Shown: positions 242 to 26,367, counted from the stretch's first letter. The stretch: DNA of 64,000 nt from an uncultured archaeon (GCA_964549075.1 CAZJUB010000010.1:1575-65574); one strand, 5' to 3'. Notes: a model not told the origin generated them from the sequence alone. Made by a program: numbers and translations.

Positions 242-1702
242 TTAATCATCATCAAGATCAATTGTTTTTTGATGTAAAACATGTCTTTCCCAATCAAGAG
301 TTATATGTCCATCAATATGCTTCGTGAAAGGAACATCCATTCTCCCATAAGGTGTAGGTGCATAGAATTCCATTACTTCAGGATCATTATTCTTAGGAAT
401 CAAAGGAATAGTTATTTTATCTACCCAATTTTCATCTAATATGTAGAGTAATCCATTTCTATTTTGAACTTGAACAGTAATTGTCTTTTTATAGGTTTCA
501 TATCTTCCAGCGAGTGAACGTAAGTGTTTTCTTCTCTTAAAGAAAGGCATTTCCTCATCGGGGTTTTTCCCAAATATCAAAGCAAAAGCTACAAACATTA
601 GATGCAAAGGTATCCAATTGACATTTTGAAGTAAGGCAAAAGTCAGTTTGAGTTCAGGGATAAAACCTACCATACCACCAGAAACACCAGAATTTCCTCC
701 ATGAGTAATAATTCTCTGTCCAAAGAAATCATGATAGATCTTCCATCCATACCCGTAAGTAGCTGTTAAGTCTGGATAATAATAGAAGTATTTTGCTTGA
801 ATGTTTTGATTATGAGGTTTCCACATTTCTTGTATAAGTTCTTCTCCAAGTATTCTAACTCCTTTGTATTCTCCACCATTAAGGTTACATTGCAGATAAT
901 TTGTCATCTCTCTAACACTTGAGATAATACCTCCTGCTCCAGCAATAAAGGGACCAGAAAGCAAATCTTTTGCATCTCTGAAAATAACGTCTTTATTTAA
1001 ACCATAATCGAATCCTCTTGAAACATCATTATCTTCTTCAGCTGTTTTGTTAGAAAAAGTACTTCTATTCATATTTAGGGGAGATAGAATATTCTTCTCA
1101 ATATATTCTTCATACTTAATACTACTTACTTTTTCAATAATTTGTCCTAATAAAACAAAACCTGCATTCCAGTAGTAATATTTTGTACCAGGGGGGCTTA
1201 ATATTTCTGATTTTGCATCATTTATATGGAAATAAAAATCATCCCAAGTTCCCATTGGAAATTCAGGAGGAGTTGTTTTTACCAACTTTTGATTTTTTTG
1301 TGAAAAATAAAATGTGTTTAAGGCTGGAACTCCTGACGAGTGACTCATAAGATGTTTGATTAGTATAGGATTATCTTCGAAACCTAATTCAAAAGGAATA
1401 TATTCTGAAACAGGATCATTAATATCCAATTTTCCTTGTTCATGAAGCTGCAAGATACCTAAGCATGTAAAAGATTTAGTTATTGAAGAGATACCATAAA
1501 GAGTATCAGGTGTTGTTGGTTTTACATTCTTACCGCTTTCTCTTAAGCCAAATGACCTTTCATATATGATATTATCATCTTGTGTTATGATAACTGAAAT
1601 TCCTGGAACTTTTAGATCTCGCATAACTTTTACAATTTCTCTTTCAAATCTATTTTTGAAATTTTCCAACTTAAATTCAGGAATACTCATTTTATTCATC
1701 AA
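242..1702 (-). CDS. Beta-lactamase-fold serine hydrolase (class C beta-lactamase / D-aminopeptidase-like), cytoplasmic
   Basis: SxxK motif S-I-T-K in YGISSITKSF, Y-x-N in YYWNAG, and an H/K-T/S-G-like THGG. A beta-rich C-terminal extension of about 110 aa is present. There is no signal peptide. Confidence 0.8.
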   Translation of the reverse strand: MMNKMSIPEFKLENFKNRFEREIVKVMRDLKVPGISVIITQDDNIIYERSFGLRESGKNVKPTTPDTLYGISSITKSFTCLGILQLHEQGKLDINDPVSEYIPFELGFEDNPILIKHLMSHSSGVPALNTFYFSQKNQKLVKTTPPEFPMGTWDDFYFHINDAKSEILSPPGTKYYYWNAGFVLLGQIIEKVSSIKYEEYIEKNILSPLNMNRSTFSNKTAEEDNDVSRGFDYGLNKDVIFRDAKDLLSGPFIAGAGGIISSVREMTNYLQCNLNGGEYKGVRILGEELIQEMWKPHNQNIQAKYFYYYPDLTATYGYGWKIYHDFFGQRIITHGGNSGVSGGMVGFIPELKLTFALLQNVNWIPLHLMFVAFALIFGKNPDEEMPFFKRRKHLRSLAGRYETYKKTITVQVQNRNGLLYILDENWVDKITIPLIPKNNDPEVMEFYAPTPYGRMDVPFTKHIDGHITLDWERHVLHQKTIDLDDD

Positions 1703-1850: not shown

Positions 1851-3599
1851 TTGAATAAAAAATTATTAATCGTTACAGCTGTTTTTTGTGCTGTTATTAT
1901 GTCTACATCTCCAATTATGTCAGTTGTAGCGCAAGACTACTTTGTTGGCGGAACTGTGACAGTTGCTAGTGGTACAGATCCATTAACACTTAATCCGTTA
2001 ACATATGGTTCAATCTATGAAGGATATATTATTGGATTTGTATATGACTCTCTAGTCTACCTTGATACAGACAACGAACCAGTACCTATTTTAGCTGCAT
2101 CTTGGGAACATAGTGTAGATAACACTGTTTGGAACTTCACCATCAGATCTGATGCTGTTTGGCACGACGGTATTCCATTAACAGTAGATGATATTGAATA
2201 CACATGGAATCTTAAATTAGCTGATGCTGGTATTCCACGTAGAAGCTGGTTGTTCGATGATTTAATCAGTATTACTAAATTCCCAGCAGAGGATAAGATA
2301 CAAGCAGAATTTGATTTTGAACCAAAAGATGCTGATATACTTCTGGATTTTGCAACTGAAACAATCTTACCTAAACACATTTGGGAAGATGTTGCTGACA
2401 TCTATTCATTCAATAATGAAGCACCAATTGGTAGTGGTCCATTCGTATTTGAAGAATGGGAAACTGGACAATATATCAAACTGACCAGAAATCCAAATTA
2501 CTACCTTGATGGTCCATGGATTGAAGAATTGATAGTTCAACTAATACCTTCTACTGAATCTCAGTACTATGCTTTAAGTACTGGAGATATAGAGATGATG
2601 GGCGGTCCACCACCAGAATTAGAAGCTTTAGCAGAAGTTGATCCAAATATTGCAATACATCATTATCTAGATGATTATGTCATGTACTTAGGTATGAATC
2701 AACGAAGATATCCAAATAACGTAGTAGAATTCAGACAAGCTGTCTTAACTGCTATTAACAGGTCAGAAATTGTTGAAATTGCTCGTTACGGACGCGGTAT
2801 GGAAGCTCCTGCTTCTATGAGCTTACCATATGGACCATATTATAATCCGGACATTCCAACATATGATTATGATCCAGCTGCTGCTAATGCAATGCTAGAT
2901 AGTCTAGGTTGGGTTGATACCGACATGGATGACGTAAGAGAGACAGATAATGGAACAGTACTTGAATTTGATCTGCTAGTTTCAGCAGAAGCTCAAGAAT
3001 CTGTTGATTCTGCAAAACTAATCCAAAATTATATGGCTGCTATTGGTGTAGATGTCACTCTTGTACCGATGATCTTCGATTTAATATGGACTCTCGTTGG
3101 TGGTCCTGGTGGAACATATCCAGACAAATATGACTTTGATTGGGCATTTTTAGGTTGGGTCGGCTTTTGGTCGGACTTCTATCCAAATTGGGCCCATTGG
3201 ATGTTCAATGCTGATGATTGGTGGGGATCTGATGAAGTTAACATCCCTGGTTGGTCAGGAACCGCAAGAGATGAAGTAACTCAACTTACTGAAGACATTC
3301 TGTATTCAGTTAATGAAACGGAAATCAAGGAGAAACTCGATGAAGTACAATTGATAGTTGCTACAGATCTACCATATATACCAATTAATATTCTTGGTGG
3401 TACAGCTCTATATAGAACTGATAAATTCACAGGATATATCACAGGTCCAAGTACAGGTCCAGATAATTGGCAAACATGGTTGAATCTCCATCTGATTGAG
3501 CCAGAAGAAACACAAGGATCTCCTGCTTTTACAGTAATAATAGCAGTTATCACTGTATTGTCAGCTGTCGGAGCCAAAAAATTACGAAAACACAAATAA
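1851..3599 (+). CDS. ABC transporter substrate-binding protein, family 5 (peptide/nickel, OppA/DppA-like), C-terminally membrane anchored
   Basis: N-terminal signal/TM segment. Family-5 SBP-like blocks are present (WHDGIPLTVDDIEYTW, GSGPFVFEEWETGQYIKLTRNPNYY). It ends in a C-terminal hydrophobic helix plus the basic tail KKLRKHK. It lies upstream of two permeases and two ATPases. Confidence 0.85.
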   Translation: MNKKLLIVTAVFCAVIMSTSPIMSVVAQDYFVGGTVTVASGTDPLTLNPLTYGSIYEGYIIGFVYDSLVYLDTDNEPVPILAASWEHSVDNTVWNFTIRSDAVWHDGIPLTVDDIEYTWNLKLADAGIPRRSWLFDDLISITKFPAEDKIQAEFDFEPKDADILLDFATETILPKHIWEDVADIYSFNNEAPIGSGPFVFEEWETGQYIKLTRNPNYYLDGPWIEELIVQLIPSTESQYYALSTGDIEMMGGPPPELEALAEVDPNIAIHHYLDDYVMYLGMNQRRYPNNVVEFRQAVLTAINRSEIVEIARYGRGMEAPASMSLPYGPYYNPDIPTYDYDPAAANAMLDSLGWVDTDMDDVRETDNGTVLEFDLLVSAEAQESVDSAKLIQNYMAAIGVDVTLVPMIFDLIWTLVGGPGGTYPDKYDFDWAFLGWVGFWSDFYPNWAHWMFNADDWWGSDEVNIPGWSGTARDEVTQLTEDILYSVNETEIKEKLDEVQLIVATDLPYIPINILGGTALYRTDKFTGYITGPSTGPDNWQTWLNLHLIEPEETQGSPAFTVIIAVITVLSAVGAKKLRKHK

Positions 3600-3610
3600 T
3601 AAATATAGAA

Positions 3611-3650
3611 CTAAGGGTTTTACCTTAGATTCTTTCTATTTTTCTTTTTA
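3611..3650 (+). terminator. Hairpin plus T-rich tract after the SBP gene
   Basis: ctaagg-gtttta-ccttag stem-loop followed by attctttctatttttcttttt. Confidence 0.45.
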
Positions 3651-3706
3651 AAAACAATTAAGATTAATGTTTAATTATAAAACGCTTTTCTAAACATTAA
3701 GTATAT

Positions 3707-3730
3707 CCCGAAATATTTAAAAATATTTCA
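3707..3730 (+). promoter_or_regulatory. Second copy of the BRE/TATA-like element, upstream of permease 1
   Basis: cccgaaatatttaaaaatatttca. It is also preceded by ctaaacat, as in the 1745-1782 copy. Confidence 0.45.
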
Positions 3731-3763
3731 AATATAGAAAAAATAACTATTGGAGAGTTTATA

Positions 3764-5320
3764 ATGTATTTACGAGAAGGTGAGACACCGAAAGGGTTCT
3801 TTAATCAACCAAAAAATTACTTGTACTTTATTGGAGTAGGATTTTTACCTTTACTTTTAACAATTGGTGCAGTTATTGCTGGCGCTATTGCATCACTAGC
3901 AACACCTAGTGAAATTTCTTCATTTTTTGAATTGGATGTTCTAAGATATTTTGGTCAAACGAATCTTCGATTTCGAGATATGATTAAAAATTTTGTAATA
4001 AAAGATGTAATAGTCTATGGAGGGACAGCATCATTACCAGTATGGATGGCACTTTGTTGTGCAGTTGCAACGATAGTATTTTCTTCTATTTATATAATAG
4101 TGCTTAAGAAAGACAAAATGTTAGCAAATCGTAGATTACTCAAAGTTGCGTCTGGTATGTTTTGGCTTCTTAATATTATCTTGATTTTAGGCGAGTTGCT
4201 CAAAATTTCCATACCAGATTATAAAACTACTGGAAATCCTGATTATCTTGTAAAAACGATATTAGAAGTCATCTGTGTAGCTTCAATAGGACTTCTTTTC
4301 TGGGTATATTATATCTGGAGACATATTAACTGGAAGATAGCGAGATACATTGTTAAGAAATTACTATTTGCATTTGTAGCTTATTTCGTAGCAATAGTTC
4401 TAGTGTTTATCATTTATAGAGTCATGCCTGGTGATCCAACATTTATTTTTGCTACGCAGAGAGATGTTGATCCAGGTGTAACGCAAGCGTTGATTGAAAG
4501 GTGGGGATTAAATCTACCATTATGGAACCAATTTTGGATTTATGTTGGGAATATCTTCCATGGAGATTTAGGTTATTCTTACCTTCATATGAAATATGTT
4601 AATTTGATAATTGCTGATTATGTCCCATGGTCACTACTTCTTCTTGGAACAGCTTTTGTACTTAACTCCGTAATTGGTATAATTCTCGGAGCAATTGTAG
4701 CTTGGAGAAGAGGTTCAAAATTAGATTCAGCTTTTGTGTTAACTTATAATGTCTATAATGCTATTCCACTGTTCTTTGTAGGAATGATATTTATCGCAGT
4801 TTTTGGATATATGGCTCAAGATAGAGGATGGTTAATATACTTTCCAATATTCGGTTCTTACTCAGCTAAAGGATCAGCGGTAGGTTTGATGCACGTATTA
4901 GATGTTCTATGGCACATGTTTTTACCATTATTGACATTAATGTTATATGGTGTTTTAGGGTGGTCTTGGTTTATGAGAGGGAATTTAATTAATGTAAAAA
5001 CAGAAGATTACATCCAGACAGCTAAAGCGAAAGGATTAAATGATAACCAAGTTCTTTTCAAACATGGTTTTAGAAATGCTTCTTTACCTGTTATTACGTC
5101 AATTGGTATGAGTTTCGGAGGATTAATAGGAGGAGCTGTTCTAGTAGAGACTGTTTTTGGGTACAAAGGAATGGGGACACTCATTTTTAACGCGATATTA
5201 AACAAAGATTACCAACTATTAATGGGTACTTTCATAATTATTGCAGGAATTACACTTTTAGGTCTTCTTATTGCAGAAATAACATACGGATTTGTTGACC
5301 CAAGGATTAAAACAGATTAG
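3764..5320 (+). CDS. ABC transporter permease (OppB/DppB-like) with an N-terminal polytopic extension of about 190 aa
   Basis: The canonical core starts near IARYIVKKLLFAFVAY..RVMPGDP. The EAA-type loop is TAKAKGLNDNQVLFKHGFRNASLPVIT. The N-terminal part is several extra hydrophobic helices. Confidence 0.85.
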   Translation: MYLREGETPKGFFNQPKNYLYFIGVGFLPLLLTIGAVIAGAIASLATPSEISSFFELDVLRYFGQTNLRFRDMIKNFVIKDVIVYGGTASLPVWMALCCAVATIVFSSIYIIVLKKDKMLANRRLLKVASGMFWLLNIILILGELLKISIPDYKTTGNPDYLVKTILEVICVASIGLLFWVYYIWRHINWKIARYIVKKLLFAFVAYFVAIVLVFIIYRVMPGDPTFIFATQRDVDPGVTQALIERWGLNLPLWNQFWIYVGNIFHGDLGYSYLHMKYVNLIIADYVPWSLLLLGTAFVLNSVIGIILGAIVAWRRGSKLDSAFVLTYNVYNAIPLFFVGMIFIAVFGYMAQDRGWLIYFPIFGSYSAKGSAVGLMHVLDVLWHMFLPLLTLMLYGVLGWSWFMRGNLINVKTEDYIQTAKAKGLNDNQVLFKHGFRNASLPVITSIGMSFGGLIGGAVLVETVFGYKGMGTLIFNAILNKDYQLLMGTFIIIAGITLLGLLIAEITYGFVDPRIKTD

Positions 5321-5328
5321 GTGACAAA

Positions 5329-7815
5329 ATGCAGACAAAAGAAACAAAAAGAATTAGAAACATACTGATATATTGGGTACTATCGTCAGTTCTATTTATA
5401 ATAGACGCAGCCTTAAAAGCACTTCCAGCTTATAATAGTCCAACAAAAAATAGATTAATACCTCATCTTCAAGGAGTTATAGAGTTACCAATTTTAGTAA
5501 ATCAAAATTACCTTATTTGGGGAATTGTAAATTTTGTAGGTTTAGCTTCAATTATTCTTTTGATAATAATTATCTTAAGACCAGAGAAAAGTAAGGATGT
5601 TTTCTTTATAGGTTTGGTACCATTAATTATTTCAATAATTGCTCTAAGTTATGGTATAGCATCATTTTGGGGTGTTGTTGCACTTATCTTCAATTTTATG
5701 ATAGCTTGGAATTGTTTGAGTTTGACAGGAAGAATCAAGCAATTTACTAGTTATATCAATAGAACGATTTTCAAAAATAAAAAAATTGTAACCGGAATAA
5801 TATGGACTATCTCCACAGCTTCATTAATCCTCGATGCTGTTCTACGAGCATTTCCTGAAAGTCAAACAGAAGGTGTTTATCAAATTGTAAGAGGAGTAAT
5901 AGAATGTATCGGAGCAGGATTTGTTTTACTTACAATTTTATTAATTAACAAAAAGGTACCTAATAAAATAAAAATGTATGTTGGTTTGGGTCCACTTGCG
6001 GCTACTTTTCTTGGATTTCTGATAGGTTATCCAATTTCTATGACTTCAATATGGATGTGGATTTCTATTGTGTTCAGTGTATTAACAATGGCTCAATTTG
6101 TCAAGTTATATGGAAAAATCAAAGACATTCCAACATTCAATCGAAAAATGAATGGGATATTTTGGCTTTTCGCAGCAATTATGGGATTAATTAATGCAAT
6201 TAATATTGCTTTCCCACTCTATAACTTACATACTAAAACTGTAGATTTAGGATGGGGAATCATTGAAACACTACTAGCAGTTTCAATACTAATTCCGTTA
6301 CCGATTTACATTTACGATTCAATGATTACAGAGGGTAAAAGAACTAACATTATGAAAAAGATGATTAATGCTATTTCCATAAGATTCCAAAATACAAAAA
6401 TCAAAGTTTTGTTTTCAATATTTCTAGTCCTTACAACAGGAGTTGCTCTTGGATGGGACTTAGCACGAGATTATCTTTACTACAGGTGGTCTCAATTTTC
6501 GTATTATGAACTATACAGCAATTATGTTATACCTATAGTGTTTAATGGATTAAGTGCTTTCATAATATTAATTCTGTTTTATAGATTATTAATAAAAGAT
6601 AAAAGTACTAAAATTGACAAGATTACTGCTACTCTACCTTTAGCTCTTTCAATTGTTAATCTCTTTCTATATACTAATTTAAAGCCTCTATCTCTATATA
6701 TTTCGTGGGTACCAGTTTTCTTAGTAAGTTTATTCATCTTTATTTTTAGTTTAAGAGGTCAAGAATCTAGGACCAGCCGTTGGGTAATGAGGATAACAGG
6801 TATAGTACCTGCAATTTTAGCTATAACTAGCTTTATCTTTTCCTTAGTAGCAGAAGGGACAGATATTTGGTCGTGGTTATCACTTATTTCTGGTATTTTT
6901 GCGACAATTTTTGCTATTCTTGTTACAGGAAATGCTAATAATCAAGAAAGAAGAGTTATCAAGTTTGGAAAGACATGGAATGTTTTCAAAAAGAATTGGA
7001 TGGGTATTACAGGTCTTATCCTTTTAACAGTGATAGTTATTTTAGCTATAGGAGGATCAAGATTAACTAAATGGGATCCTGATAAATATTATGTACAAGA
7101 TCGTCTTCAAGCCCCATCTACTACTCACATCCTAGGTACGAACCGTTATGGTCAAGACGTATTCACTGTATTACTAGATAGTCTTGGTATCTCACTTCTT
7201 ATTGGTATTATTGCAGGTAGTCTAACTGTGATAGTAGGAACTACGATAGGTGTTGCGAGTGCATACATTGGGGGTTGGGTTGATAACATAATTATGCGTA
7301 TAACTGATGTTATTTTAGTGATGCCAGCACTCCCATTGATGTTAGTGTTAGCTTCTTTACCATTTCTATTTGGTAAAGTACATTGGTCTGTAATAGCAGT
7401 GGTTTATATTGTGGTATTCTGGCCAGTATCTGCTAGACTAATTAGAGGTCAAGCTCTATCAGTTAAAGAAAGAGCATTTGTTATAAGTGCTAAATCTTCA
7501 GGAGCAGGATCAGGTTATATAATATTCAGGCACATTTTACCTAATGTATTTCCATTAATGCTTACTATGATTATAACTTCGATGAGACAAGCAATATTAT
7601 ATGAATCATTCTTATCCTATTTAGGTCTTGGAGATCCATTAAATTGGACTCTTGGTCAGATGCTTTATATTGCTCAAAATCAAGCAGCTTTTGCATCTGG
7701 AGCTTGGTGGATGTTCTTCCCTCCAGGTATAGCAATAGGTTTGATAACATTGAGTTTTGCATTTATTGGAATGGCATTGGATGAAATTGTAAATCCACGT
7801 TTGAGGAAAAGGTGA
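5329..7815 (+). CDS. ABC transporter permease (OppC/DppC-like) with an N-terminal polytopic extension of about 550 aa
   Basis: The canonical core starts near FKKNWMGITGLILL..HILGTNRYGQDVF. The EAA-type loop is SAKSSGAGSGYIIFRHILPNVFPL. The preceding ~550 aa are repeated multi-helix modules. Confidence 0.85.
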   Translation: MQTKETKRIRNILIYWVLSSVLFIIDAALKALPAYNSPTKNRLIPHLQGVIELPILVNQNYLIWGIVNFVGLASIILLIIIILRPEKSKDVFFIGLVPLIISIIALSYGIASFWGVVALIFNFMIAWNCLSLTGRIKQFTSYINRTIFKNKKIVTGIIWTISTASLILDAVLRAFPESQTEGVYQIVRGVIECIGAGFVLLTILLINKKVPNKIKMYVGLGPLAATFLGFLIGYPISMTSIWMWISIVFSVLTMAQFVKLYGKIKDIPTFNRKMNGIFWLFAAIMGLINAINIAFPLYNLHTKTVDLGWGIIETLLAVSILIPLPIYIYDSMITEGKRTNIMKKMINAISIRFQNTKIKVLFSIFLVLTTGVALGWDLARDYLYYRWSQFSYYELYSNYVIPIVFNGLSAFIILILFYRLLIKDKSTKIDKITATLPLALSIVNLFLYTNLKPLSLYISWVPVFLVSLFIFIFSLRGQESRTSRWVMRITGIVPAILAITSFIFSLVAEGTDIWSWLSLISGIFATIFAILVTGNANNQERRVIKFGKTWNVFKKNWMGITGLILLTVIVILAIGGSRLTKWDPDKYYVQDRLQAPSTTHILGTNRYGQDVFTVLLDSLGISLLIGIIAGSLTVIVGTTIGVASAYIGGWVDNIIMRITDVILVMPALPLMLVLASLPFLFGKVHWSVIAVVYIVVFWPVSARLIRGQALSVKERAFVISAKSSGAGSGYIIFRHILPNVFPLMLTMIITSMRQAILYESFLSYLGLGDPLNWTLGQMLYIAQNQAAFASGAWWMFFPPGIAIGLITLSFAFIGMALDEIVNPRLRKR

Positions 7816-7819
7816 TAAA

Positions 7820-8929
7820 ATGGAACTATTAGACGTAAAGAATCTGAAAACATACTTCTATACTCAACAAGGTTCAGTAAAAGCTGTTGATGATATTAGT
7901 TTTCAATTGCAAAAAGGTGAAGTACTTGGTCTAGCTGGTGAATCTGGTTGTGGAAAAACAACCACTTGTCTTTCTATCATGCGTATGATAGAATCTCCTG
8001 GCAGGATCTTATCTGGAGAAATAAATTATGAATACACTGATTCTGTTATAAAATCCTTTGATGGAGCTTATGATAGATATCTGTATAACATAGTAAAACC
8101 TGCTAGAGAACATAAAAAGGAATCTACTATATTTGATGAAGCTTTTATTGATAACATTCTCATAAAACGAGGAATAAAAGACAGATCCAATAATTTGTTA
8201 GATTTAACCGAAGCAGAAATGAGGAGAATTAGAGGTAAACACATTGCTATGGTATTCCAAGGAGCTATGAATGCATTAAATCCTGTTCATAGAGTAGGAA
8301 ATCAGATAAAAGAAGCTATTACTGTCCATGATCCGGATATTGAATACCGAGAACTTTGGGAAAGAGTGTATAAAATTCTTGAAACAGTTGGAATAGATCC
8401 TGAAAGAGCACGAGACTATCCTCATCAATTGAGTGGAGGGATGAAACAGAGAGCATTGATAGCAATGGCACTTGTAAATAATCCTCAAATTATCATAGCA
8501 GATGAACCTGTAACAGCACTAGATGTAATAGTTCAAGCACAAGTTCTTAAAGCTACAAAAGAGTTACAGAGTCAATTTAATCTTTCTATGATAATGATCA
8601 CTCATGATCTATCTGTAATTGCGGAAGTTTGTGAAACACTTGCTATAATGTATGCGGGGAAGATGGTAGAATATGGAAAATTGAGAGATGTATACAAAGA
8701 ACCTTTACATCCTTATACAGAAGCATTGATTAGTGCATTTCCAAAACTCACGGGTCCAAAAACAGAATTATATGACATAGGAGGACGTCCTCCTGACTTA
8801 AGAAATCCACCATCAGGATGTCGTTTTCATCCGAGATGCCCCAAAGCTATGCCTATTTGCAGTAAAGAAGAACCTAAAATCACAAAAATTAGAGATGGTT
8901 ATGTTGTGTGTCACTTATATCAGGATTAG
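7820..8929 (+). CDS. ABC transporter ATP-binding protein (OppD/DppD-like)
   Basis: Walker A GESGCGKT, signature LSGGMKQR, Walker B IIIADEP, and the C-terminal oligopeptide-transporter motif CRFHPRCP. There is extra sequence between Walker A and the Q-loop. Confidence 0.9.
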   Translation: MELLDVKNLKTYFYTQQGSVKAVDDISFQLQKGEVLGLAGESGCGKTTTCLSIMRMIESPGRILSGEINYEYTDSVIKSFDGAYDRYLYNIVKPAREHKKESTIFDEAFIDNILIKRGIKDRSNNLLDLTEAEMRRIRGKHIAMVFQGAMNALNPVHRVGNQIKEAITVHDPDIEYRELWERVYKILETVGIDPERARDYPHQLSGGMKQRALIAMALVNNPQIIIADEPVTALDVIVQAQVLKATKELQSQFNLSMIMITHDLSVIAEVCETLAIMYAGKMVEYGKLRDVYKEPLHPYTEALISAFPKLTGPKTELYDIGGRPPDLRNPPSGCRFHPRCPKAMPICSKEEPKITKIRDGYVVCHLYQD

Positions 8930-8940
8930 GAGAGTAAAAA

Positions 8941-10107
8941 ATGTCTGAGAGAGATGTAGTAGTAGAAGCAAAAAATTTGATAAAATTATTTCCTGTTAAA
9001 AGTGGAATTGTTAGATCTGTTGCACGTAAAAGTACAACTATCCCAATAAAAGAAACTCAAGGAAAAACCACATATAAAACATTGAAGGGAGATTTTGTTC
9101 ATGCAGTCGATGGAGTTTCATTTAAGATTTACAAAGGAGAGACTTTTGGTCTTGTAGGCGAGAGTGGATGTGGAAAATCAACTACAGGATTATTACTTCT
9201 TCAACTTCTAGATAGAACCGGTGGAGGTATTTTCTTCAAAGATGTTGAAACTTCAGAGTATACACGAGCACATCTATGGATGAACACTATCATCAATTTC
9301 AGTAAATTTCTAATAGGAAGGTCAAGTTGGAATGATGTTAGGAAAACTTTTCAGCATTATTCTTCTCAAGTAAGATTATTCAGAAAGAATATTCAGATTA
9401 TTTTCCAGAATCCATACGAATCATTAAGTCCTCGATTTAATGTTCTTGACACAGTTGCAGAACCGTTAAGGTTAATGCATATAGTCGAAGATGAAAGGGA
9501 AATAGAGGAGTTAGTCATTAAGGAATTAGAGGAAGTTGGTTTAACACCAGGAACAGAATTTCTAGACAGATATCCGCACGAATTAAGCGGTGGTCAAAGA
9601 CAAAGAGTAGGAGTAGCTAGAGCTTTTATATTAGATCCAGAATTTGTTGTAGCTGATGAACCAGTATCAATGCTTGATGTTTCCATTCGAGTTGGGGTTC
9701 TGAAAATAATGCAAGCTCTAACTAGGAGTAGAGGAACAGGATTTCTCTTCATAACTCATGATCTCGCTCTAGCTAGACATATGTGTGATAGAATAGCTGT
9801 TATGTACTTGGGACGAATCGTTGAACAAGGACCTACAGAAGAACTAGTTCATAGACCATTGCATCCTTATACAAAAGCTTTGATCAAAGCAGTGCCAAAG
9901 GCAGATCCAGATGCAAGAAGAACTGAAGATTTACCAATTAAAGGAGAAGTACCTAGTGGAATAAATATTCCGCCAGGATGCAGATTCCAATCTAGATGCC
10001 CATATTCAACAGAAAAATGTAAGGAAATAGATCCGAAATTGGAACTAGTAAAAACCGATCATCTAGTTGCATGTATAAGAGTGAAAGAGATAAATGATCT
10101 AAAATGA
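8941..10107 (+). CDS. ABC transporter ATP-binding protein (OppF/DppF-like)
   Basis: Walker A GESGCGKST, signature LSGGQRQR, Walker B FVVADEP, and C-terminal CRFQSRCP. Confidence 0.9.
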   Translation: MSERDVVVEAKNLIKLFPVKSGIVRSVARKSTTIPIKETQGKTTYKTLKGDFVHAVDGVSFKIYKGETFGLVGESGCGKSTTGLLLLQLLDRTGGGIFFKDVETSEYTRAHLWMNTIINFSKFLIGRSSWNDVRKTFQHYSSQVRLFRKNIQIIFQNPYESLSPRFNVLDTVAEPLRLMHIVEDEREIEELVIKELEEVGLTPGTEFLDRYPHELSGGQRQRVGVARAFILDPEFVVADEPVSMLDVSIRVGVLKIMQALTRSRGTGFLFITHDLALARHMCDRIAVMYLGRIVEQGPTEELVHRPLHPYTKALIKAVPKADPDARRTEDLPIKGEVPSGINIPPGCRFQSRCPYSTEKCKEIDPKLELVKTDHLVACIRVKEINDLK

Positions 10108-12281
10108 GCTTAGTATTAAAAGAAAAACTAGAAAACCTGATGAGTAAAGGTGATTATAGGAAGGCTTATGAGTTAATAGAGAAAACTCAAAGCCAAAATA
10201 CTTTTTCTGAAGAGGATCAGCTTATTTTAAATTGCAAAAAATGTCGTGTATTAAGATACCTAGGAGATTTTGAAGAATTAATTAAAATATCTCAACAAGT
10301 TCAATCCAAAGCAAAAATTCTCAAAAAAAACGCAATTCAATTAGATGCATTATTACTGGAAATCTTTGCACATTATAGATTGAATAAGGTTGAATATGTT
10401 TTAGATTTAATTGATAAAGCAGATAGTCTCTTACTCAAACTCAAAAAAGGAGATATTTCTTCACTCATGACTCGACTATTGAATTACAAAGTTTATGCAA
10501 ACATAACTAATGGAGATTTTGACAAAGCACATGTTTATGCACAAGAGAACTTCATATTATGCAAAGAACTGAATAATAAAGAATTATTAGCAACTGCTTA
10601 CTATATCAACGGATGGATGTACATGCATAAAGGCGATATGCGTAAATCTGCAGAAAATTATAAAATGAGTCTTGATATAAGAGAAGAACTTAATAATAAT
10701 CCTTATGACTTATCGCATTCTCTTTTCGGATTAGGTTATGTTTACAGAAATTTGGGAGAATTTGACGCTGCTTTCTCCTGCTTAAGCAGATGTAAGGAAA
10801 TTAGAGAGAAGATAGGTAATAAACAAGATATTGTATGGACTTCTCTTAACCTTGGAGATGTTTTTTATGCGAAAAATAATGCAAGAAAAGCTCAAGAATA
10901 CTATGAAGATTCATTGCTATTAAGTCAAAAAATGAACTACATTTATGGTATTTTATTTTCTCTAAGAAGACTTAGTTCAGTTTATGAAAATCTCAAAGAA
11001 CCACAACTTGTTAGGGATACGTTGGAGAAAGCTCTTTATTATTCAAAGCAACTTGAAGATGTTGATTCAGAAGTCTATAGTCTTTTTGATTTGATAAAAT
11101 ATTGTATAGAAAATAAAATTGAAATAGATAAGCTAGAGAATTTCCTATCTCGTTTGCGAATAATTAATGAGACCTATAACAATAAAATCTTCGATACGAT
11201 CTATAGGTTATCTCAAGCACTTTTACTTAAATCGGAAAGAGGTAAACATAACAAAGATAAAGCTAGGAATTTATTTAAAGAGATATCCGAGGAAGATATT
11301 ATAATTTTTGAATTTACAAAGATTGCTATGCACAATTACAGCGTTCTTCTAGCAGAAGAATTGAAAAGATATCTTGATGAAGGGACTATTTCAAGTCAAT
11401 TAACTGATTTATCTGAGAGAATGGAATCTAGTACTCTACATCGATCTTATACACAAGTCGCAGAAAATTTCTTAGATTTAAGCCAAGTCGCACTAGAAGA
11501 TATAAATATTAGTAAAGCACGGGAGTTATTAAGAAATGCTCAATATCTCTGTGATTTCTTAAATCTTTACAATAAAGGTTCTACTCCTTTTAGGATAATT
11601 TACACTCTATACATTAAAGAGAGAAATCTTAATGAATTAAGTAAAATTCTGAAAATAACTAAAGGAGCTCTAAGCACTCAGTTAAAATTATTAATTGATT
11701 TAGATATTGTAAGAATCTCAAGAGAGGAGCAGGTAAGATCAGCTACAATGCTCAAGAAATATTATACACTTGGCACCAAAGGTCTTGAACTTCTCAAACC
11801 TTTAAGGATTCAACTTTGTGATAGTTTAAGTGTAGAAAACAGCGATCCTGATATTTTGATTGATAGTTTAATGAAACCAAGGCTTCTATTAAAGATTATT
11901 AGAGATACTACAAATCTTACTGATAATTTCCAAGATTTCTTGGAAGAACAAGTTTTTCTAAAACCTACAGGTAAAAAACAAATAGAAAACAATGCATCTA
12001 TGCTGAAGGATGTTAAGAAAATACTTGGAGTAACAACTGATGTGAGTGTAGATCAATTTCTTTTAACTGAAAAACAATACAAAATTTATAAAAAGTATTG
12101 GAAAGAATTTTCAGAGAAAATTCAGAAAGAAGTCATTGTGGAAGATATTAATTCTCCGAAATATCACTCAATAGAAAAACCAATTTACGTTGCAAATATT
12201 ACACTTCCTCTAAACGATTTAATGGCTCTTGAGAGATATCAGTTAAAAAAACAAAAGTTGAATGAAAAAAATAAAGACTAA
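10104..12281 (+). CDS. TPR-repeat protein with a C-terminal winged helix-turn-helix domain
   Basis: The N-terminal ~400 aa are TPR-like (repeated A/Y/G-spaced helices, e.g. ATAYYINGWMYMHKGDMRKSAENYKMSL and LFGLGYVYRNLGEFDAAFSCL). The wHTH is near NLNELSKILKITKGALSTQLKLLIDLDIVRI...ATMLKKYYTL. The ATG overlaps the oppF-like TGA (ATGA). Confidence 0.7.
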   Translation: MSLVLKEKLENLMSKGDYRKAYELIEKTQSQNTFSEEDQLILNCKKCRVLRYLGDFEELIKISQQVQSKAKILKKNAIQLDALLLEIFAHYRLNKVEYVLDLIDKADSLLLKLKKGDISSLMTRLLNYKVYANITNGDFDKAHVYAQENFILCKELNNKELLATAYYINGWMYMHKGDMRKSAENYKMSLDIREELNNNPYDLSHSLFGLGYVYRNLGEFDAAFSCLSRCKEIREKIGNKQDIVWTSLNLGDVFYAKNNARKAQEYYEDSLLLSQKMNYIYGILFSLRRLSSVYENLKEPQLVRDTLEKALYYSKQLEDVDSEVYSLFDLIKYCIENKIEIDKLENFLSRLRIINETYNNKIFDTIYRLSQALLLKSERGKHNKDKARNLFKEISEEDIIIFEFTKIAMHNYSVLLAEELKRYLDEGTISSQLTDLSERMESSTLHRSYTQVAENFLDLSQVALEDINISKARELLRNAQYLCDFLNLYNKGSTPFRIIYTLYIKERNLNELSKILKITKGALSTQLKLLIDLDIVRISREEQVRSATMLKKYYTLGTKGLELLKPLRIQLCDSLSVENSDPDILIDSLMKPRLLLKIIRDTTNLTDNFQDFLEEQVFLKPTGKKQIENNASMLKDVKKILGVTTDVSVDQFLLTEKQYKIYKKYWKEFSEKIQKEVIVEDINSPKYHSIEKPIYVANITLPLNDLMALERYQLKKQKLNEKNKD

Positions 12282-12292
12282 AAAATCAGATT

Positions 12293-13339
12293 TCATTTAT
12301 TTCTTAAGGATCTTCTAAAAGCTAGAACTGCTTCTAAAACAACGAAAAATAATGCTGAATAACTTAGGAAGACGTAAAGTATAACACGATCAGCATAACC
12401 TCCATATTGATCGCTACTTAAATGATAATAAACAATTGCATCACCGATTTGGTAAAATGGAGCTAAATAATCATACAACTTATTATATTCATATTTACCT
12501 TGGTTTTCAATACCGAACTGATTAATTACAATTTCTGTGCTATAATTTCTTAAAGTATTCATAACAGCTTCTTTTGAGAAATCTGTTATATTAATAGCTG
12601 TCCATGCAAACACTCTTCCTCCATCTTGTTTCGCTGGAGAGTGCATATCTGTTCCTGAAATCATTCCAACGGTATTATTATGACTTTTAACAAAATTATA
12701 GGATCCCTCATCGAAATCTAGTCCATTCATGACTTCAAAATAGTCCACCCCCCAGCTCTATAAAAGCTCGTTAGAAGGGACATTTTCTTCTGAAGTTCTT
12801 CTTGTATATCCAGGATGATTAAATGTGACTGTGCCATTTTGTCTATGTACTTCATCTATTGCTTGTCGTATTTCATCGTTGTTAGGATTCCATGGGATCT
12901 CAAGAGTCCAATTTTTTATACCTATAAAATTCAAATGAACACGATTTGTTGTCCATTCCATCCCTTGAATTACAATACACCTATTAGCATATTCATTGGC
13001 GAGTAATTGAATTTCCTCCGAATTTTTTAGAGTATTATGGTCAGAGATAACTACTACTTTAAATCCTAAAGCTAAATGCCATTCAATATTTTGTCGAACA
13101 GTAAGTTTACCATCACTATATTTTGTATGAGAATGTTGATCCAATAATAAATCATATTTTACATCTGTTTGGGGAACATAAGGAGTTGAATCTTTCCAAC
13201 TATCGTCTGAATAGATGTATCTTGGAGGACCATACACTTTTAACAGCACACTTCCAGCAGCTATCAGTGCTACTATGAATAAGTAAATTGCTAAGTGAAA
13301 AGAAAACCTTCTCAGACTCCTAAATATGTCCATTATCAA
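12293..13339 (-). pseudogene. Membrane-anchored PHP-domain phosphoesterase interrupted by one in-frame TAG (pseudogene, sequencing error or recoded gene)
   Basis: ORFs 12758-13339 and 12293-12748 are in the same frame. The minus-strand reading is ...SNELL-TAG-SWGVDYFEVMNG..., with the TAG at 12760-12758. PHP motifs DQHSHTKYSDG, SDHN, FNHPG and GTDMHSP span the stop. There are N- and C-terminal TM helices. Confidence 0.65.
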
Positions 13340-24909: not shown

Positions 24910-26367
24910 TTGTTTGGAAATCAAAAAAAAGGTAAACCTCAACATTGTGGAAAAAAAATGCAAAGATTGTATATTAGAAAAGGTACAGCAGAAAGGAGAT
25001 GGATTGCAGTTGGGTATTATTGTAATGTATGTAGAAAAATGATAAAAGATTCCGATTTAGCACTATATAGACGTTCAGAAGATCTTATGACTAGACCAGA
25101 ATTAGTACCTTTCTTATCAAATCCACAAAAAATTATTTTAGATATTGGAGAAAAGTTAACTAAAGTAGGTTTCGGTGGAGAAAGAGAACCAAGGTTAATT
25201 CTAGATTCACTTTTATATTATGATAAAAACAACAAATCCTTTATTCAAAATTCTGATTACATTGAGACATCCAAGACAGTAAAATCACAGAAAACCCTAT
25301 TTTGTGATGATATTAGTCCCAGTCTAAAACTTGATGTAGTAGACCTTTTTCTTACACGTGTTTTTGAGATTTTAGGAGTCAATCCTAAGGATAAATCAAT
25401 CATGATAATTGAAAAAAACTACAAAAACAATTATGTAGAAGCCTTATATGGTAAAAAAAAGGAAATTAACGAAACAACACTTCCTGAAGATATTAAAGAG
25501 AAGTTAAAAGAAAAAAGAAAAGTTGAATATCTTAATTATGATAAATATGTAAAATTTCCCAGAAGAGAATTAAGTTCTCTTCTTTTTGATAATTTTGAAG
25601 CTTCTCAGATCTATTTTTCGAATGGAGAGTTACTATCTTTATACGCGAATGATATGATCACTGGATTGGTGGTAAACATTGGAACAAGTTCTACTAGAAT
25701 TATTCCTGTATTTCAAGGATTCATTATAACTCATGCAATTAATGTAAGAGATATTGGTACAGCACAAGTCTTTGAGAAAATTTTAGAATACTTAGATGTT
25801 CAAAATAATTTTAAAAATGTATCCCAGCACACCAAATATTTAATTCAAAAACGGTTGCGTTTATCTTCAGAGGAATTTTGTTATATATCTTTGGATCCAA
25901 CATCTGAGGAAACTAAATGGTATGAAAATGAGAAATTGAAAAAATATATTCATCTTTTTGAGAATGAATATGTAGAAATGGATCAAATCAGATATTTAGC
26001 AACAGAGATTTTGTTTGAGAAAGAAGAATTAAGTATTACAAAGAAGAAAGGAACACTAACAGATGCAATTATTGAAACTATTCAAAAATGTGATGTAGAT
26101 TTAACTAAATCACTGTATAGCAATATTCTAGTGACGGGAGGAGGTTCGTTTTATGAGGGATTAGCAGAGAGACTTCTTTTTGAATTAAAAGAGAAAGTGC
26201 AAAATCGTGTGGAAGTTAGTGTTAATACCAAACCTAATCGATTGATTTCTTCTTGGATAGGTGGATCAATTCTTTCTATTTTACCGGATTTTGAAAATAG
26301 TAACCTTTGGGTAACTAGAGAGGAATATAACGAAAAAGGTGTTTCAGCTATAGATAGATGTATTTAA
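24910..26367 (+). CDS. Actin-family protein (divergent actin/Arp-like) with a Cys/His-containing N-terminal extension
   Basis: Actin-fold motifs: ILDIGEKLTKVGFGGEREPR (phosphate 1), GLVVNIGTSSTRIIPVFQGF (phosphate 2), ILVTGGGSFYEGLAERL (adenosine) and SWIGGSILS...WVTREEYNEKG (actin C-terminus). The start is TTG with GGAG 7 nt upstream. The N-terminus carries H12, C13, C38 and C41. Confidence 0.85.
   Translation: MFGNQKKGKPQHCGKKMQRLYIRKGTAERRWIAVGYYCNVCRKMIKDSDLALYRRSEDLMTRPELVPFLSNPQKIILDIGEKLTKVGFGGEREPRLILDSLLYYDKNNKSFIQNSDYIETSKTVKSQKTLFCDDISPSLKLDVVDLFLTRVFEILGVNPKDKSIMIIEKNYKNNYVEALYGKKKEINETTLPEDIKEKLKEKRKVEYLNYDKYVKFPRRELSSLLFDNFEASQIYFSNGELLSLYANDMITGLVVNIGTSSTRIIPVFQGFIITHAINVRDIGTAQVFEKILEYLDVQNNFKNVSQHTKYLIQKRLRLSSEEFCYISLDPTSEETKWYENEKLKKYIHLFENEYVEMDQIRYLATEILFEKEELSITKKKGTLTDAIIETIQKCDVDLTKSLYSNILVTGGGSFYEGLAERLLFELKEKVQNRVEVSVNTKPNRLISSWIGGSILSILPDFENSNLWVTREEYNEKGVSAIDRCI

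What the first reader, a model, noticed from the sequence alone, without database searches (positions are those of the whole stretch)
3764..7815. Both Opp/Dpp-type permeases carry large N-terminal polytopic extensions built from a shared repeated module
Canonical OppB/OppC cores start at about aa 190 of the 518-aa protein and about aa 550 of the 828-aa protein. The extra ~550 aa of the second permease contain at least two full repeats and one partial repeat of a multi-helix module. Compare IYWVLSSVLFIIDAALKALPAYN...GVIELP...KSKDVFFIGLVPLII...SFWGVVALIFNFMIAWNCLSLTGRIKQFTSYINR with IIWTISTASLILDAVLRAFPESQ...GVIECI...PNKIKMYVGLGPLAA...SIWMWISIVFSVLTMAQFVKLYGKIKDIPTFNRK, and the third unit FWLFAAIMGLINAINIAFPLYN...GIIETL. 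The first permease extension contains a related unit (FWLLNIILILGELLKISIPDY...TILEVI). I am not aware that large homologous membrane add-ons on both permeases are usual for peptide importers. They could form an extra membrane domain for sensing, scaffolding or substrate handling.
Basis: partly seen in the sequence, partly recalled or inferred. Interest (0 to 1): 0.65.

Follow-up and report, generated by a model that had tools for sequence, protein, structure and literature searches.

The report
Repeated membrane add-on on peptide importer
In an uncultured Heimdall (Asgard) archaeon, both membrane subunits of an otherwise ordinary peptide-uptake ABC transporter carry extra N-terminal membrane domains built from one rare four-helix module; the domains are real and conserved, but what they do is unknown.

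Summary
The OppB-like gene (3764-5320) and OppC-like gene (5329-7815) have canonical cores starting at aa 193 and aa 548.

- **OppC extension:** it holds three full copies, not two and a half, of a ~125-aa four-helix membrane module (profile-profile E 2e-12 to 5e-9). In this lineage a ~150-aa, four-helix insertion splits the third copy.
- **OppB extension:** it is one module in circularly permuted order (c-d-a-b; E 8e-9 once re-permuted).
- **Really coding:** the extensions are kept in at least 8 independent assemblies, show dN/dS 0.16-0.27 (cores 0.03-0.08), obey the positive-inside rule (38 vs 6 K/R) and have SD-like motifs at the annotated starts.
- **Rarity:** a profile search of 1.84 billion representative proteins found the module only in this operon family. 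It occurs with 1 or 3 copies on OppC, and once inserted into the OppF ATPase. Close syntenic operons have none.
- **No known relatives:** no Pfam, PDB-sequence or significant fold match.

Function was not tested. My best guess is a TMD0-like accessory scaffold outside the transport pathway. It is a new variant of a known transporter, of moderate interest.

The parts
3752..3755 (+). SD-like GGAG, 8 nt upstream of the OppB ATG (3764)
   Evidence: read directly from the sequence
3764..5320 (+). OppB-like permease gene, 518 aa: a 192-aa, 4-TM extension plus the canonical 6-TM core
3800..4108 (+). OppB extension, c-d half of the module (aa 13-115), with a ~43-aa insertion in the outer c-d loop
   Evidence: hhalign against the 29-module profile: E 1e-5 for this half alone, 4e-5 within the whole extension. 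HMM hits fall in the same register in 6 orthologues.
4145..4315 (+). OppB extension, a-b half of the module (aa 128-184; FWLLN...PDY...TILEV)
   Evidence: hhalign E 5e-6. HMM i-E 3.4e-7 with Z=1. 18.4 bits against the U2 HMM.
4340..5317 (+). OppB canonical core (aa 193-518)
   Evidence: Pfam PF19300 + PF00528; NCBIfam Opp4B aligns over aa 194-516
5320..5324 (+). SD-like GGTGA overlapping the OppB stop codon, 4 nt upstream of the OppC ATG (5329)
5329..7815 (+). OppC-like permease gene, 828 aa: a 548-aa, 16-TM extension plus the canonical 6-TM core
5347..5772 (+). Module copy U1 (aa 7-148), 4 TM helices; its outer a-b loop is ~19 aa longer than in U2
5773..6147 (+). Module copy U2 (aa 149-273). 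It holds the most conserved stretch of the extension, PISMTSIWMW (aa 235-244), at the outer c-d loop.
6148..6333 (+). Module copy U3, a-b half (aa 274-335)
   Evidence: HMM positions 3-61, i-E 2e-13
6334..6780 (+). Lineage-specific insertion (aa 336-484), 4 predicted TM helices, splitting U3. Absent from the 677-680-aa orthologues and from the P0127 outgroup. Only weakly module-like.
   Evidence: hhalign E 0.002, 12.5% probability. HMM i-E 4e-4 to 4e-3. dN/dS 0.35 against L005; dS saturated against L004.
6781..6972 (+). Module copy U3, c-d half (aa 485-548), followed by the conserved NxNNQ.RR..KFGKTW tail that leads into core TM1
   Evidence: HMM positions 62-125, i-E 8e-15. The same tail opens the canonical L014 OppC.
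6973..7812 (+). OppC canonical core (aa 549-828)
   Evidence: Pfam PF12911 + PF00528; NCBIfam Opp4C aligns over aa 549-824
1851..3599 (+). Family-5 solute-binding protein with a C-terminal TM anchor (first gene of the operon)
7820..8929 (+). OppD-type ATPase (ABC_tran + oligo_HPY)
8941..10107 (+). OppF-type ATPase. It has soluble insertions at two hot spots; the first is the site where the L015 orthologue carries a membrane module.

Best explanation
**What it is (shown).** This is a canonical Opp/Dpp-type ABC peptide importer (binding protein, two permeases, two ATPases) from a Heimdallarchaeote. Both permeases have gained N-terminal accessory membrane domains.

- The building block is a lineage-restricted ~125-aa module of four transmembrane helices (a, b, c, d). 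It starts and ends on the cytoplasmic side.
- OppC carries three tandem copies. In this sub-lineage a further four-helix insertion sits inside the third copy, giving 16 extra helices.
- OppB carries one copy in the shifted order c-d-a-b, giving 4 extra helices. This is what copying an out-of-register segment of the OppC array would produce.
- The extensions are translated and under purifying selection. They evolve 4-5 times faster than the cores.
- The module has been duplicated, moved between subunits of the same operon, and gained or lost among closely related operons.

**How it most likely works (inferred).** The modules probably form a peripheral accessory bundle beside the 12-helix translocation core. 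By analogy with the TMD0 domains of TAP, TAPL and ABCC transporters, this would be a scaffold or interaction platform that stabilises the complex or docks a partner, and would not be part of the substrate pathway. Peptide transport itself would run through the unmodified core.
For: **Shown.**
- Core boundaries.
- Repeat statistics.
- Permuted OppB module: E 8e-9 against control E > 0.19.
- ORFs intact in at least 8 assemblies at dS > 1. pN is 0.25-0.29 against pS 0.58-0.71, and dN/dS is 0.16-0.27 for the extensions against 0.03-0.08 for the cores.
- Positive-inside rule: 38 K/R in cytoplasmic loops against 6 in outer loops for OppC, and 13 against 6 for OppB. This topology delivers core TM1 in its normal orientation.
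- SD-like motifs lie at both annotated starts, and the OppB-OppC gap is only 8 nt.
- AF2 models a single module as a four-helix bundle (pLDDT 81.7, pTM 0.71).
- The module is restricted to this operon family in 1.84e9 representative proteins.
- Syntenic operons carry 0, 1 or 3 modules.
- The L015 OppF insertion is a ~45%-identical paralogue of its own OppC module 3 (SW 249 against 47 +/- 7).
- Modules 1-3 are positionally orthologous between L015 and the window clade.

**Supporting the accessory-scaffold inference.**
- The residues invariant in all copies are only W, G and P at helix ends. No polar intramembrane residue is common to all copies.
- Related operons with identical synteny work with canonical-length permeases (L014: B 330 aa, C 315 aa). 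The add-on is therefore dispensable for the basic transporter.
- The module can be supplied by OppC, OppB or OppF. This fits a part of the assembled complex better than an extension of one subunit's transport helices.
- The extensions evolve faster than the cores.
- TMD0 domains are four-helix N-terminal add-ons that act as autonomous interaction hubs and are not needed for transport (PMC3437018, PMC6199259).
Against: - No experiment or complex model bears on function.
- The full-length AF2 model was unusable (pLDDT 39), so the packing of the modules against the core or against each other is unknown.
- No partner protein is evident. The gene neighbourhood is the same with and without modules, and every binding protein has the same TM anchor.
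- A conserved Asp in helix a of U1 and U2 (D26, D169) and the nearly invariant outer motif PISMTSIWMW could point to a specific ligand or ion site rather than plain scaffolding.
- The TMD0 comparison is an analogy only. No sequence or fold relationship was found.
- dS is near saturation, so the dN/dS values are approximate.
Confidence: 0.5

Rival explanations
1. The extensions are not made. The true starts are internal, and the upstream 0.6 kb and 1.6 kb are mis-called or decaying sequence.
For: No transcript or protein data exist for these uncultured organisms. Internal Met codons lie near the core starts (for example M558 of OppC).
Against: - The frames stay open over 576 and 1644 nt in at least 8 independent assemblies at dS > 1.
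- pN is well below pS, with dN/dS 0.16-0.27.
- The N-termini are conserved.
- SD-like motifs sit at the annotated ATGs, and the OppB-OppC gap is 8 nt.
- Positive-inside bias is strong, 38 against 6 K/R.
- The same seven positions are invariant across repeats.
Confidence: 0.03
2. The modules are a functional sensing or transport element, for example an ion- or ligand-binding domain that gates or couples the importer, or that handles substrate on the outer face.
For: - Asp is invariant within helix a of U1 and U2 (D26, D169), and R188 is invariant at the start of helix b2.
- The best-conserved stretch of the whole extension is the outward-facing loop motif PISMTSIWMW.
- Purifying selection acts on the extensions.
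Against: - The Asp is not kept in U3 or in the OppB copy.
- No polar intramembrane residue is common to all copies.
- There is no similarity to any transporter, channel or sensor family.
- Copy number varies from 0 to 3 (plus an insertion) among close relatives that share the same operon content.
Confidence: 0.2
3. The add-on is tolerated ballast. An easily duplicated hydrophobic cassette spread within the operon by slippage or recombination, and it is kept only because its loss or disruption would disturb membrane insertion. It has no role of its own.
For: - Distribution is patchy. The sister lineage L019, and L012 and L014, lack it.
- Copy number varies.
- It has been copied into an ATPase loop.
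- It evolves faster than the cores.
- The family is extremely narrow.
Against: - dN/dS of 0.16-0.27 over 548 + 192 codons is more constraint than insertion compatibility alone would need.
- Modules 1-3 have stayed positionally orthologous between lineages whose cores are only ~63% identical.
- Specific loop motifs are nearly invariant.
Confidence: 0.2
4. The extension arose by fusion of a formerly independent small membrane-protein gene to the permease. On this view it is a fused accessory subunit.
For: A single-module form exists (OppC of 489-490 aa in L016, L020 and L021). The AF2 model suggests that one module folds on its own.
Against: - No stand-alone homologue exists among 1.84e9 representatives.
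- None is present in six-frame translations of the window and five related loci.
- Module-free syntenic operons have no extra gene between OppB and OppC.
Confidence: 0.07

Closest known systems
Opp/Dpp (peptide/nickel, PepT family) type I ABC importers, e.g. OppABCDF and DppABCDF
   Same: The operon holds a family-5 binding protein, two BPD_transp_1 permeases (OppB type with BPD_transp_1_N, OppC type with OppC_N) and two ATPases with the oligo_HPY C-terminal region. The cores align end to end with the NCBIfam Opp4B and Opp4C models.
   Different: Canonical OppB and OppC are ~300-330 aa with 6 TM helices each. Here they are 518 and 828 aa with 10 and 22 predicted helices. No curated equivalog cut-off is reached (220 bits against 450 and 350), so substrate specificity is not assigned.
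TMD0 domains of eukaryotic ABC transporters (TAP1/TAP2, TAPL/ABCB9, ABCC1, SUR)
   Same: Both are N-terminal accessory bundles of about four transmembrane helices added to a complete transport core. TAP also carries one on each half of a heterodimer. They are autonomous, dispensable for transport, and serve as interaction or targeting hubs (PMC3437018, PMC6199259).
   Different: TMD0 belongs to exporters with a different TMD fold, and it is never tandemly repeated. No sequence or fold similarity was detected. The resemblance is an analogy; function is untested here.
MalF of the maltose importer, a type I importer with extra N-terminal helices (own knowledge)
   Same: It is a type I ABC importer permease with helices added N-terminally to the conserved core (8 TM in MalF against 6 in MalG).
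   Different: MalF adds 2-3 non-repeated helices on one subunit only. Here 4 and 16 helices, built from a repeated module, are added to both subunits, and once to an ATPase.
Opp/Dpp permeases with large extracytoplasmic insertions after TM1 (P0058, 542 aa; L009 OppC, 537 aa)
   Same: They are over-length Opp-family permeases from metagenomes or Asgard MAGs.
   Different: Their extra sequence is a soluble, outward-facing domain between TM1 and TM2, unrelated to the module.

Membership tests
Opp/Dpp-type ABC importer (TC 3.A.1.5-like) | Cluster-C / family-5 solute-binding protein encoded with the transporter | tested here: met
   PF00496 SBP_bac_5, E 3e-73, gene 1851-3599
Opp/Dpp-type ABC importer (TC 3.A.1.5-like) | Two distinct permeases with the BPD_transp_1 core: OppB type (BPD_transp_1_N) and OppC type (OppC_N) | tested here: met
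   PF00528 E 1e-37 and 3e-24, with PF19300 and PF12911. Opp4B and Opp4C align full length at E 5e-65 each, but below the equivalog cut-offs.
Opp/Dpp-type ABC importer (TC 3.A.1.5-like) | Two ATPases carrying the oligo_HPY C-terminal extension | tested here: met
   PF00005 + PF08352 in both 7820-8929 and 8941-10107
Opp/Dpp-type ABC importer (TC 3.A.1.5-like) | Peptide (rather than nickel, opine or other) substrate | not testable with these tools
   No equivalog threshold is met. The only hint towards peptides is the conserved neighbouring Pab87-like beta-lactamase-fold peptidase gene.
Any described protein domain family, for the 4-TM module | Significant match to a Pfam or NCBIfam model, or to a solved structure's sequence | tested here: not met
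   Best Pfam E-value is 0.03-0.05, for unrelated DUFs. NCBIfam matches cover only the cores. The profile against PDB gives a best E of 0.58.
TMD0 of ABCB/ABCC transporters | Homology (sequence or fold) to a TMD0 domain | tested here: not met
   No TAP, TAPL or ABCC chain appears in the PDB profile search. The listed Foldseek matches (top 50 of 215 at E <= 10) include none of them; the best E is 0.4 and the hits are generic four-helix bundles.
TMD0 of ABCB/ABCC transporters | Dispensable for transport; binds a partner or targets the complex | not testable with these tools
   The only evidence is indirect: syntenic operons with canonical-length permeases exist.
Tandem-repeat membrane domain (internal duplication) | Statistically supported similarity between units, collinear and in the same topology | tested here: met
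   hhalign E 2e-12 to 5e-9. Seven invariant positions. Each unit runs from cytoplasm to cytoplasm by the positive-inside rule.

The most novel reading that the evidence does not exclude
The modules are a self-amplifying membrane cassette, born within one Heimdallarchaeal opp operon. It can be grafted onto any subunit: the OppC N-terminus, the OppB N-terminus in permuted register, and an OppF ATPase loop. In this reading the copies from different subunits assemble into one large accessory membrane domain of 20 extra helices. That domain would act as a prokaryotic counterpart of eukaryotic TMD0 interaction hubs, coupling peptide import to another membrane machine or to membrane organisation in an Asgard archaeon.
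Probability: 0.15. Interest if true: 0.7.

Novelty: new variant of a known kind. Interest (0 to 1): 0.45.

Why it matters
The transporter itself is ordinary. What is unusual is that the history of a new membrane domain can be read from sequence.

- The four-helix module is seen nowhere else among about 15 billion predicted proteins.
- It has been triplicated in tandem, interrupted by an insertion, and copied in shifted register onto the partner permease.
- In a sister lineage it has been inserted into the nucleotide-binding subunit. Some close relatives have none.

This makes a compact natural series (0, 1, 3, 3 plus insertion) for studying how polytopic membrane domains arise, duplicate and tolerate circular permutation. 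If the modules prove to be an interaction platform, it would be the first TMD0-like accessory domain I know of on a type I ABC importer, and it would be found in the archaeal group closest to eukaryotes.

The practical impact is limited. The family is tiny, it comes from uncultured organisms, and no function is established.

Tried and rejected
- **Self-BLAST of the extension.** It returned only the identity hit, so I replaced it with segment-wise Smith-Waterman against shuffles.
- **Word-indexed homologue search with the OppB extension alone.** It found nothing, although orthologues exist. This is a sensitivity failure of the index, not evidence of absence. The full-length query recovered them.
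- **AF2 of full-length OppC with 6 sequences.** pLDDT was 39, even for the core, so the model was not used.
- **Foldseek of the module model against PDB.** No match reached E < 0.4. The hits are generic four-helix bundles, so no fold assignment was made.
- **Pfam at E <= 10, NCBIfam and a PDB profile search on the extensions.** Only noise.
- **Two JGI metagenome scans, with the extension alignment and with the P0127 extension.** No loci found.
- **Is the 149-aa insertion a fourth module?** Support is weak (hhalign E 0.002 at 12.5% probability; HMM i-E 4e-4 to 4e-3). Left open.
- **Are the a-b and c-d hairpins themselves duplicates?** No support (E 0.1).
- **Is the module derived from the permease cores?** No (E 0.19-0.6).
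- **Is the 82-aa N-terminal extension of the L012 OppB (P0014) a module relic?** Not significant (SW z 1.7; 7.4 bits to helix d).
- **P0130 (267 aa).** It scored E 3.8e-4, but it is a non-membrane tandem repeat that matches only 24 profile positions. Judged spurious.
- **DNA-level repeats in 3764-7815.** Only short chance matches, so the duplications are old.
- **Binding-protein TM anchor as a correlate of the extension.** Rejected, because all operons have the anchor.
- **OppD insertion as a correlate.** Rejected, because L012 has it without modules.


Full report
**1. What is at the locus**

Window 1851-10107 (+) is a five-gene operon:
- a family-5 solute-binding protein (1851-3599, PF00496), with a C-terminal membrane anchor;
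- an OppB-type permease (3764-5320, 518 aa);
- an OppC-type permease (5329-7815, 828 aa);
- two ATPases with the oligo_HPY tail (7820-8929 and 8941-10107).

A 725-aa TPR + HTH protein follows at 10104-12281. A Pab87-like beta-lactamase-fold peptidase (242-1702) lies upstream on the other strand.

Pfam and NCBIfam place the canonical cores at OppB aa 193-516 and OppC aa 548-827. Related contigs are labelled Candidatus Heimdallarchaeota, and the window also encodes an actin homologue. The Asgard guess was right.

**2. The repeat is real, and more regular than described**

Segment-wise Smith-Waterman scores against 300 shuffles give z = 14.7 for OppC aa 1-148 against 149-272. Comparisons with aa 273-350, aa 450-548 and OppB aa 120-195 give z of about 3.4-4.9. 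Comparisons with the two hydrophobic cores give z < 1.6 and serve as a natural control.

Orthologues of two lengths exist, 828-837 aa and 677-680 aa. The short ones lack exactly aa 336-484 of the window protein.

Profile-profile comparison over eight orthologues gives:
- U1-U2: E 2.4e-12
- U1-U3: E 4.7e-9
- U2-U3: E 1.6e-10, where U3 is the two halves joined

OppC therefore carries three full copies of a ~125-aa four-helix module. In the window's sub-lineage the third copy is split by a 149-aa insertion with four more predicted helices.

Fourteen aligned units share seven invariant positions: W11, P28, G71, P74, G85, W94 and G114. The insertion is only weakly module-like (E 0.002, 12.5% probability), so I leave its origin open.

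**3. The OppB extension is the same module in permuted order**

A module HMM hits all six OppB orthologues in one consistent pattern: helix c near aa 15-45, helix d near aa 81-120, and helices a-b near aa 127-190.

I then built a richer profile from 29 modules. Against it:
- the a-b half scores E 5e-6;
- the c-d half scores E 1e-5, with a ~43-aa insertion in the outer loop;
- the extension re-joined in a-b-c-d order aligns full length at E 8.1e-9 (95.8% probability);
- the cores score E 0.19-0.34.

The order c-d-a-b is what an out-of-register excerpt of a tandem array (c_n d_n a_n+1 b_n+1) would give. It also preserves the cytoplasm-to-cytoplasm topology.

**4. The extensions are made**

- Both frames are intact in at least eight independent assemblies (window/L001/L002, P0001, L003, L004, L005, L007, L008, plus P0004).
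- Synonymous divergence is above 1. pN is 0.25-0.29 against pS 0.58-0.71.
- dN/dS is 0.16-0.27 for the extensions and 0.03-0.08 for the cores. dS is near saturation, so these ratios are approximate.
- The predicted helices obey the positive-inside rule: 38 K/R on the cytoplasmic side against 6 outside for OppC, and 13 against 6 for OppB. The even helix counts deliver core TM1 in its normal orientation.
- GGAG lies 8 nt upstream of the OppB ATG. GGTGA lies 4 nt upstream of the OppC ATG, which follows the OppB stop codon after 8 nt.
- The tail that opens a canonical OppC (NPNNLKRRLRKWG..., L014) is retained directly after module 3 (NANNQERRVIKFGK...). The modules were therefore added upstream of a complete permease.
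- There is no DNA-level repeat, so the duplications are old.

**5. Distribution**

The extension query found only five proteins among 5.8e9 clusters. Among the 120 best OppB homologues, only six (515-530 aa) carry the extension. The next-closest, at 53-67% identity and also from Heimdall MAGs, are 323-412 aa.

An exhaustive HMMER search with the module profile against 1.84e9 representatives returned four real clusters and one spurious hit:
- a 679-aa orthologue;
- P0127, an OppC of 716 aa with three modules;
- P0128, an OppC of 490 aa with one module;
- P0129, an OppF ATPase of 572 aa.

No stand-alone gene was found. Two JGI metagenome scans also found nothing.

All of these sit in operons with the same synteny:

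| Locus | OppB (aa) | OppC (aa) | OppF (aa) | Modules |
|---|---|---|---|---|
| L014 | 330 | 315 | 421 | none |
| L012 | 412 | 308 | 346 | none |
| L019 | 330 | truncated; canonical start | not on contig | none seen |
| L016, L020 | 330 | 489-490 | 341, 355 | one on OppC |
| L015 | 330 | 716 | 572 | three on OppC, one in OppF |
| window clade | 515-530 | 677-837 | 369-407 | three on OppC, one on OppB |

Modules 1, 2 and 3 of P0127 match U1, U2 and U3 respectively, and the single module of P0128 matches U3. The triplication therefore predates the split of these lineages.

In NJ trees the module-bearing operons are interspersed with module-free ones. That implies either repeated loss or exchange between operons. 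Support for the deep branches is modest, and I do not resolve which.

**6. The module moves between subunits**

In L015, about 215 residues are inserted in OppF between the first two beta-strands of the nucleotide-binding domain. The first ~120 of them form a module that is ~45% identical to module 3 of the same operon's OppC, including the YQG.I..LQ linker (SW 249 against 47 +/- 7).

An assembly chimera would be nearly identical, not 45% identical, so this is a genuine old intra-operon copy. Whether that ATPase is functional is unknown, because the helix count of the insertion's second half is unclear.

**7. What the module is**

There is no Pfam or NCBIfam family and no PDB sequence match. 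AF2 on the 14-unit alignment gives a confident four-helix up-down bundle (pLDDT 81.7, pTM 0.71). Foldseek finds only generic four-helix bundles, with a best E of 0.4. The full-length model was unusable (pLDDT 39), so the arrangement of modules around the core is not known.

**8. Mechanism**

*Shown:* a canonical importer core plus translated, selected and modular accessory membrane domains.

*Inferred:* the modules form a peripheral accessory bundle, not part of the translocation pathway. The reasons are:
- the residues common to all copies are only interfacial Trp and helix-end Gly/Pro, with no shared polar intramembrane residue;
- orthologous operons function with canonical-length permeases;
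- the module can be supplied by OppC, OppB or OppF;
- it tolerates circular permutation and evolves 4-5 times faster than the core.

The closest functional analogy is TMD0 of TAP1/TAP2 and TAPL. These are N-terminal four-helix add-ons that act as autonomous interaction or targeting hubs and are dispensable for transport (PMC3437018, PMC6199259). No homology was detected, so this is 'works like', not 'is a'.

Points against a purely passive role are the invariant Asp in helix a of U1 and U2, and the nearly invariant outer-loop motif PISMTSIWMW.

I put about 0.9 on the anatomy and about 0.4 on the scaffold role. The main rivals are a sensing or ligand-handling domain (0.2) and tolerated ballast (0.2). 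The internal-start artefact is essentially excluded (0.03).

**9. Verdict**

Novelty: a new variant of a known kind, namely an Opp importer with a previously undescribed, lineage-restricted, repeated accessory membrane domain.

Interest is moderate (0.45). It is a neat case of membrane-domain birth, amplification and shuffling in an Asgard archaeon, but the family is very narrow and no function is established.

Noticed in passing
window 12293-13339 (-), stop codon at 12758-12760: The PHP-domain membrane protein downstream of the operon has an in-frame TAG (ELL*SWGVD). The otherwise identical Logan contig L001 has TAT (Tyr) there, and the L007 orthologue has Met. This looks like a single-base nonsense polymorphism or an assembly error in the window's source, not recoding.
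   Followed up: partly
window 8941-10107 (OppF), aa ~27-52 and ~105-145; L015 5479-7197; L014 10011-11276; L008 9158-10381: OppF has two insertion hot spots relative to the 341-aa L016 form. The first lies between NBD strands beta1 and beta2: 26 aa in the window, ~80 aa in L014, ~215 aa including a membrane module in L015. The second follows 'ETSEYTR': ~40 aa with a hydrophobic stretch (LWMNTIINFSKFLIG) in the window clade, and a poly-Lys run in L008.
   Followed up: partly
window 24910-26367 (+): A 485-aa protein with a full-length Pfam Actin match (E 2e-58), consistent with an Asgard origin. It has a ~70-aa N-terminal region outside the actin domain.
   Followed up: no
window 242-1702 (-) and 10104-12281 (+); L012, L014, L016, L020: A Pab87-like beta-lactamase-fold peptidase (PF00144 + PF13969) upstream and a ~725-aa TPR + ArsR-type HTH protein downstream are syntenic with this opp operon in every Heimdall contig examined. 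This suggests a conserved peptide uptake, degradation and regulation unit.
   Followed up: partly
L012 7001-8239 (P0014, OppB of 412 aa): This module-free operon has an 82-aa N-terminal addition on OppB with one hydrophobic stretch (GFYPRISPLWYILL...). It faintly resembles helix d of the module (7.4 bits, E 2.6e-4 for one comparison) but is not significant overall. It may be a relic, or a mis-called start.
   Followed up: partly
L009 5116-6729 (Promethearchaeota OppC, 537 aa); P0058 (OppB, 542 aa): Other over-length Opp permeases carry a large soluble, outward-facing insertion between TM1 and TM2 rather than extra helices. This is a different and unrelated way of enlarging these permeases.
   Followed up: no
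window 32076-33611 and 33648-35003 (+); 36365-38671 (+); 44987-46963 (-): Two adjacent CitMHS-family transporter genes, a DUF3160 protein of 768 aa, and a GH127 beta-L-arabinofuranosidase-like gene lie elsewhere in the window. None was examined further.
   Followed up: no
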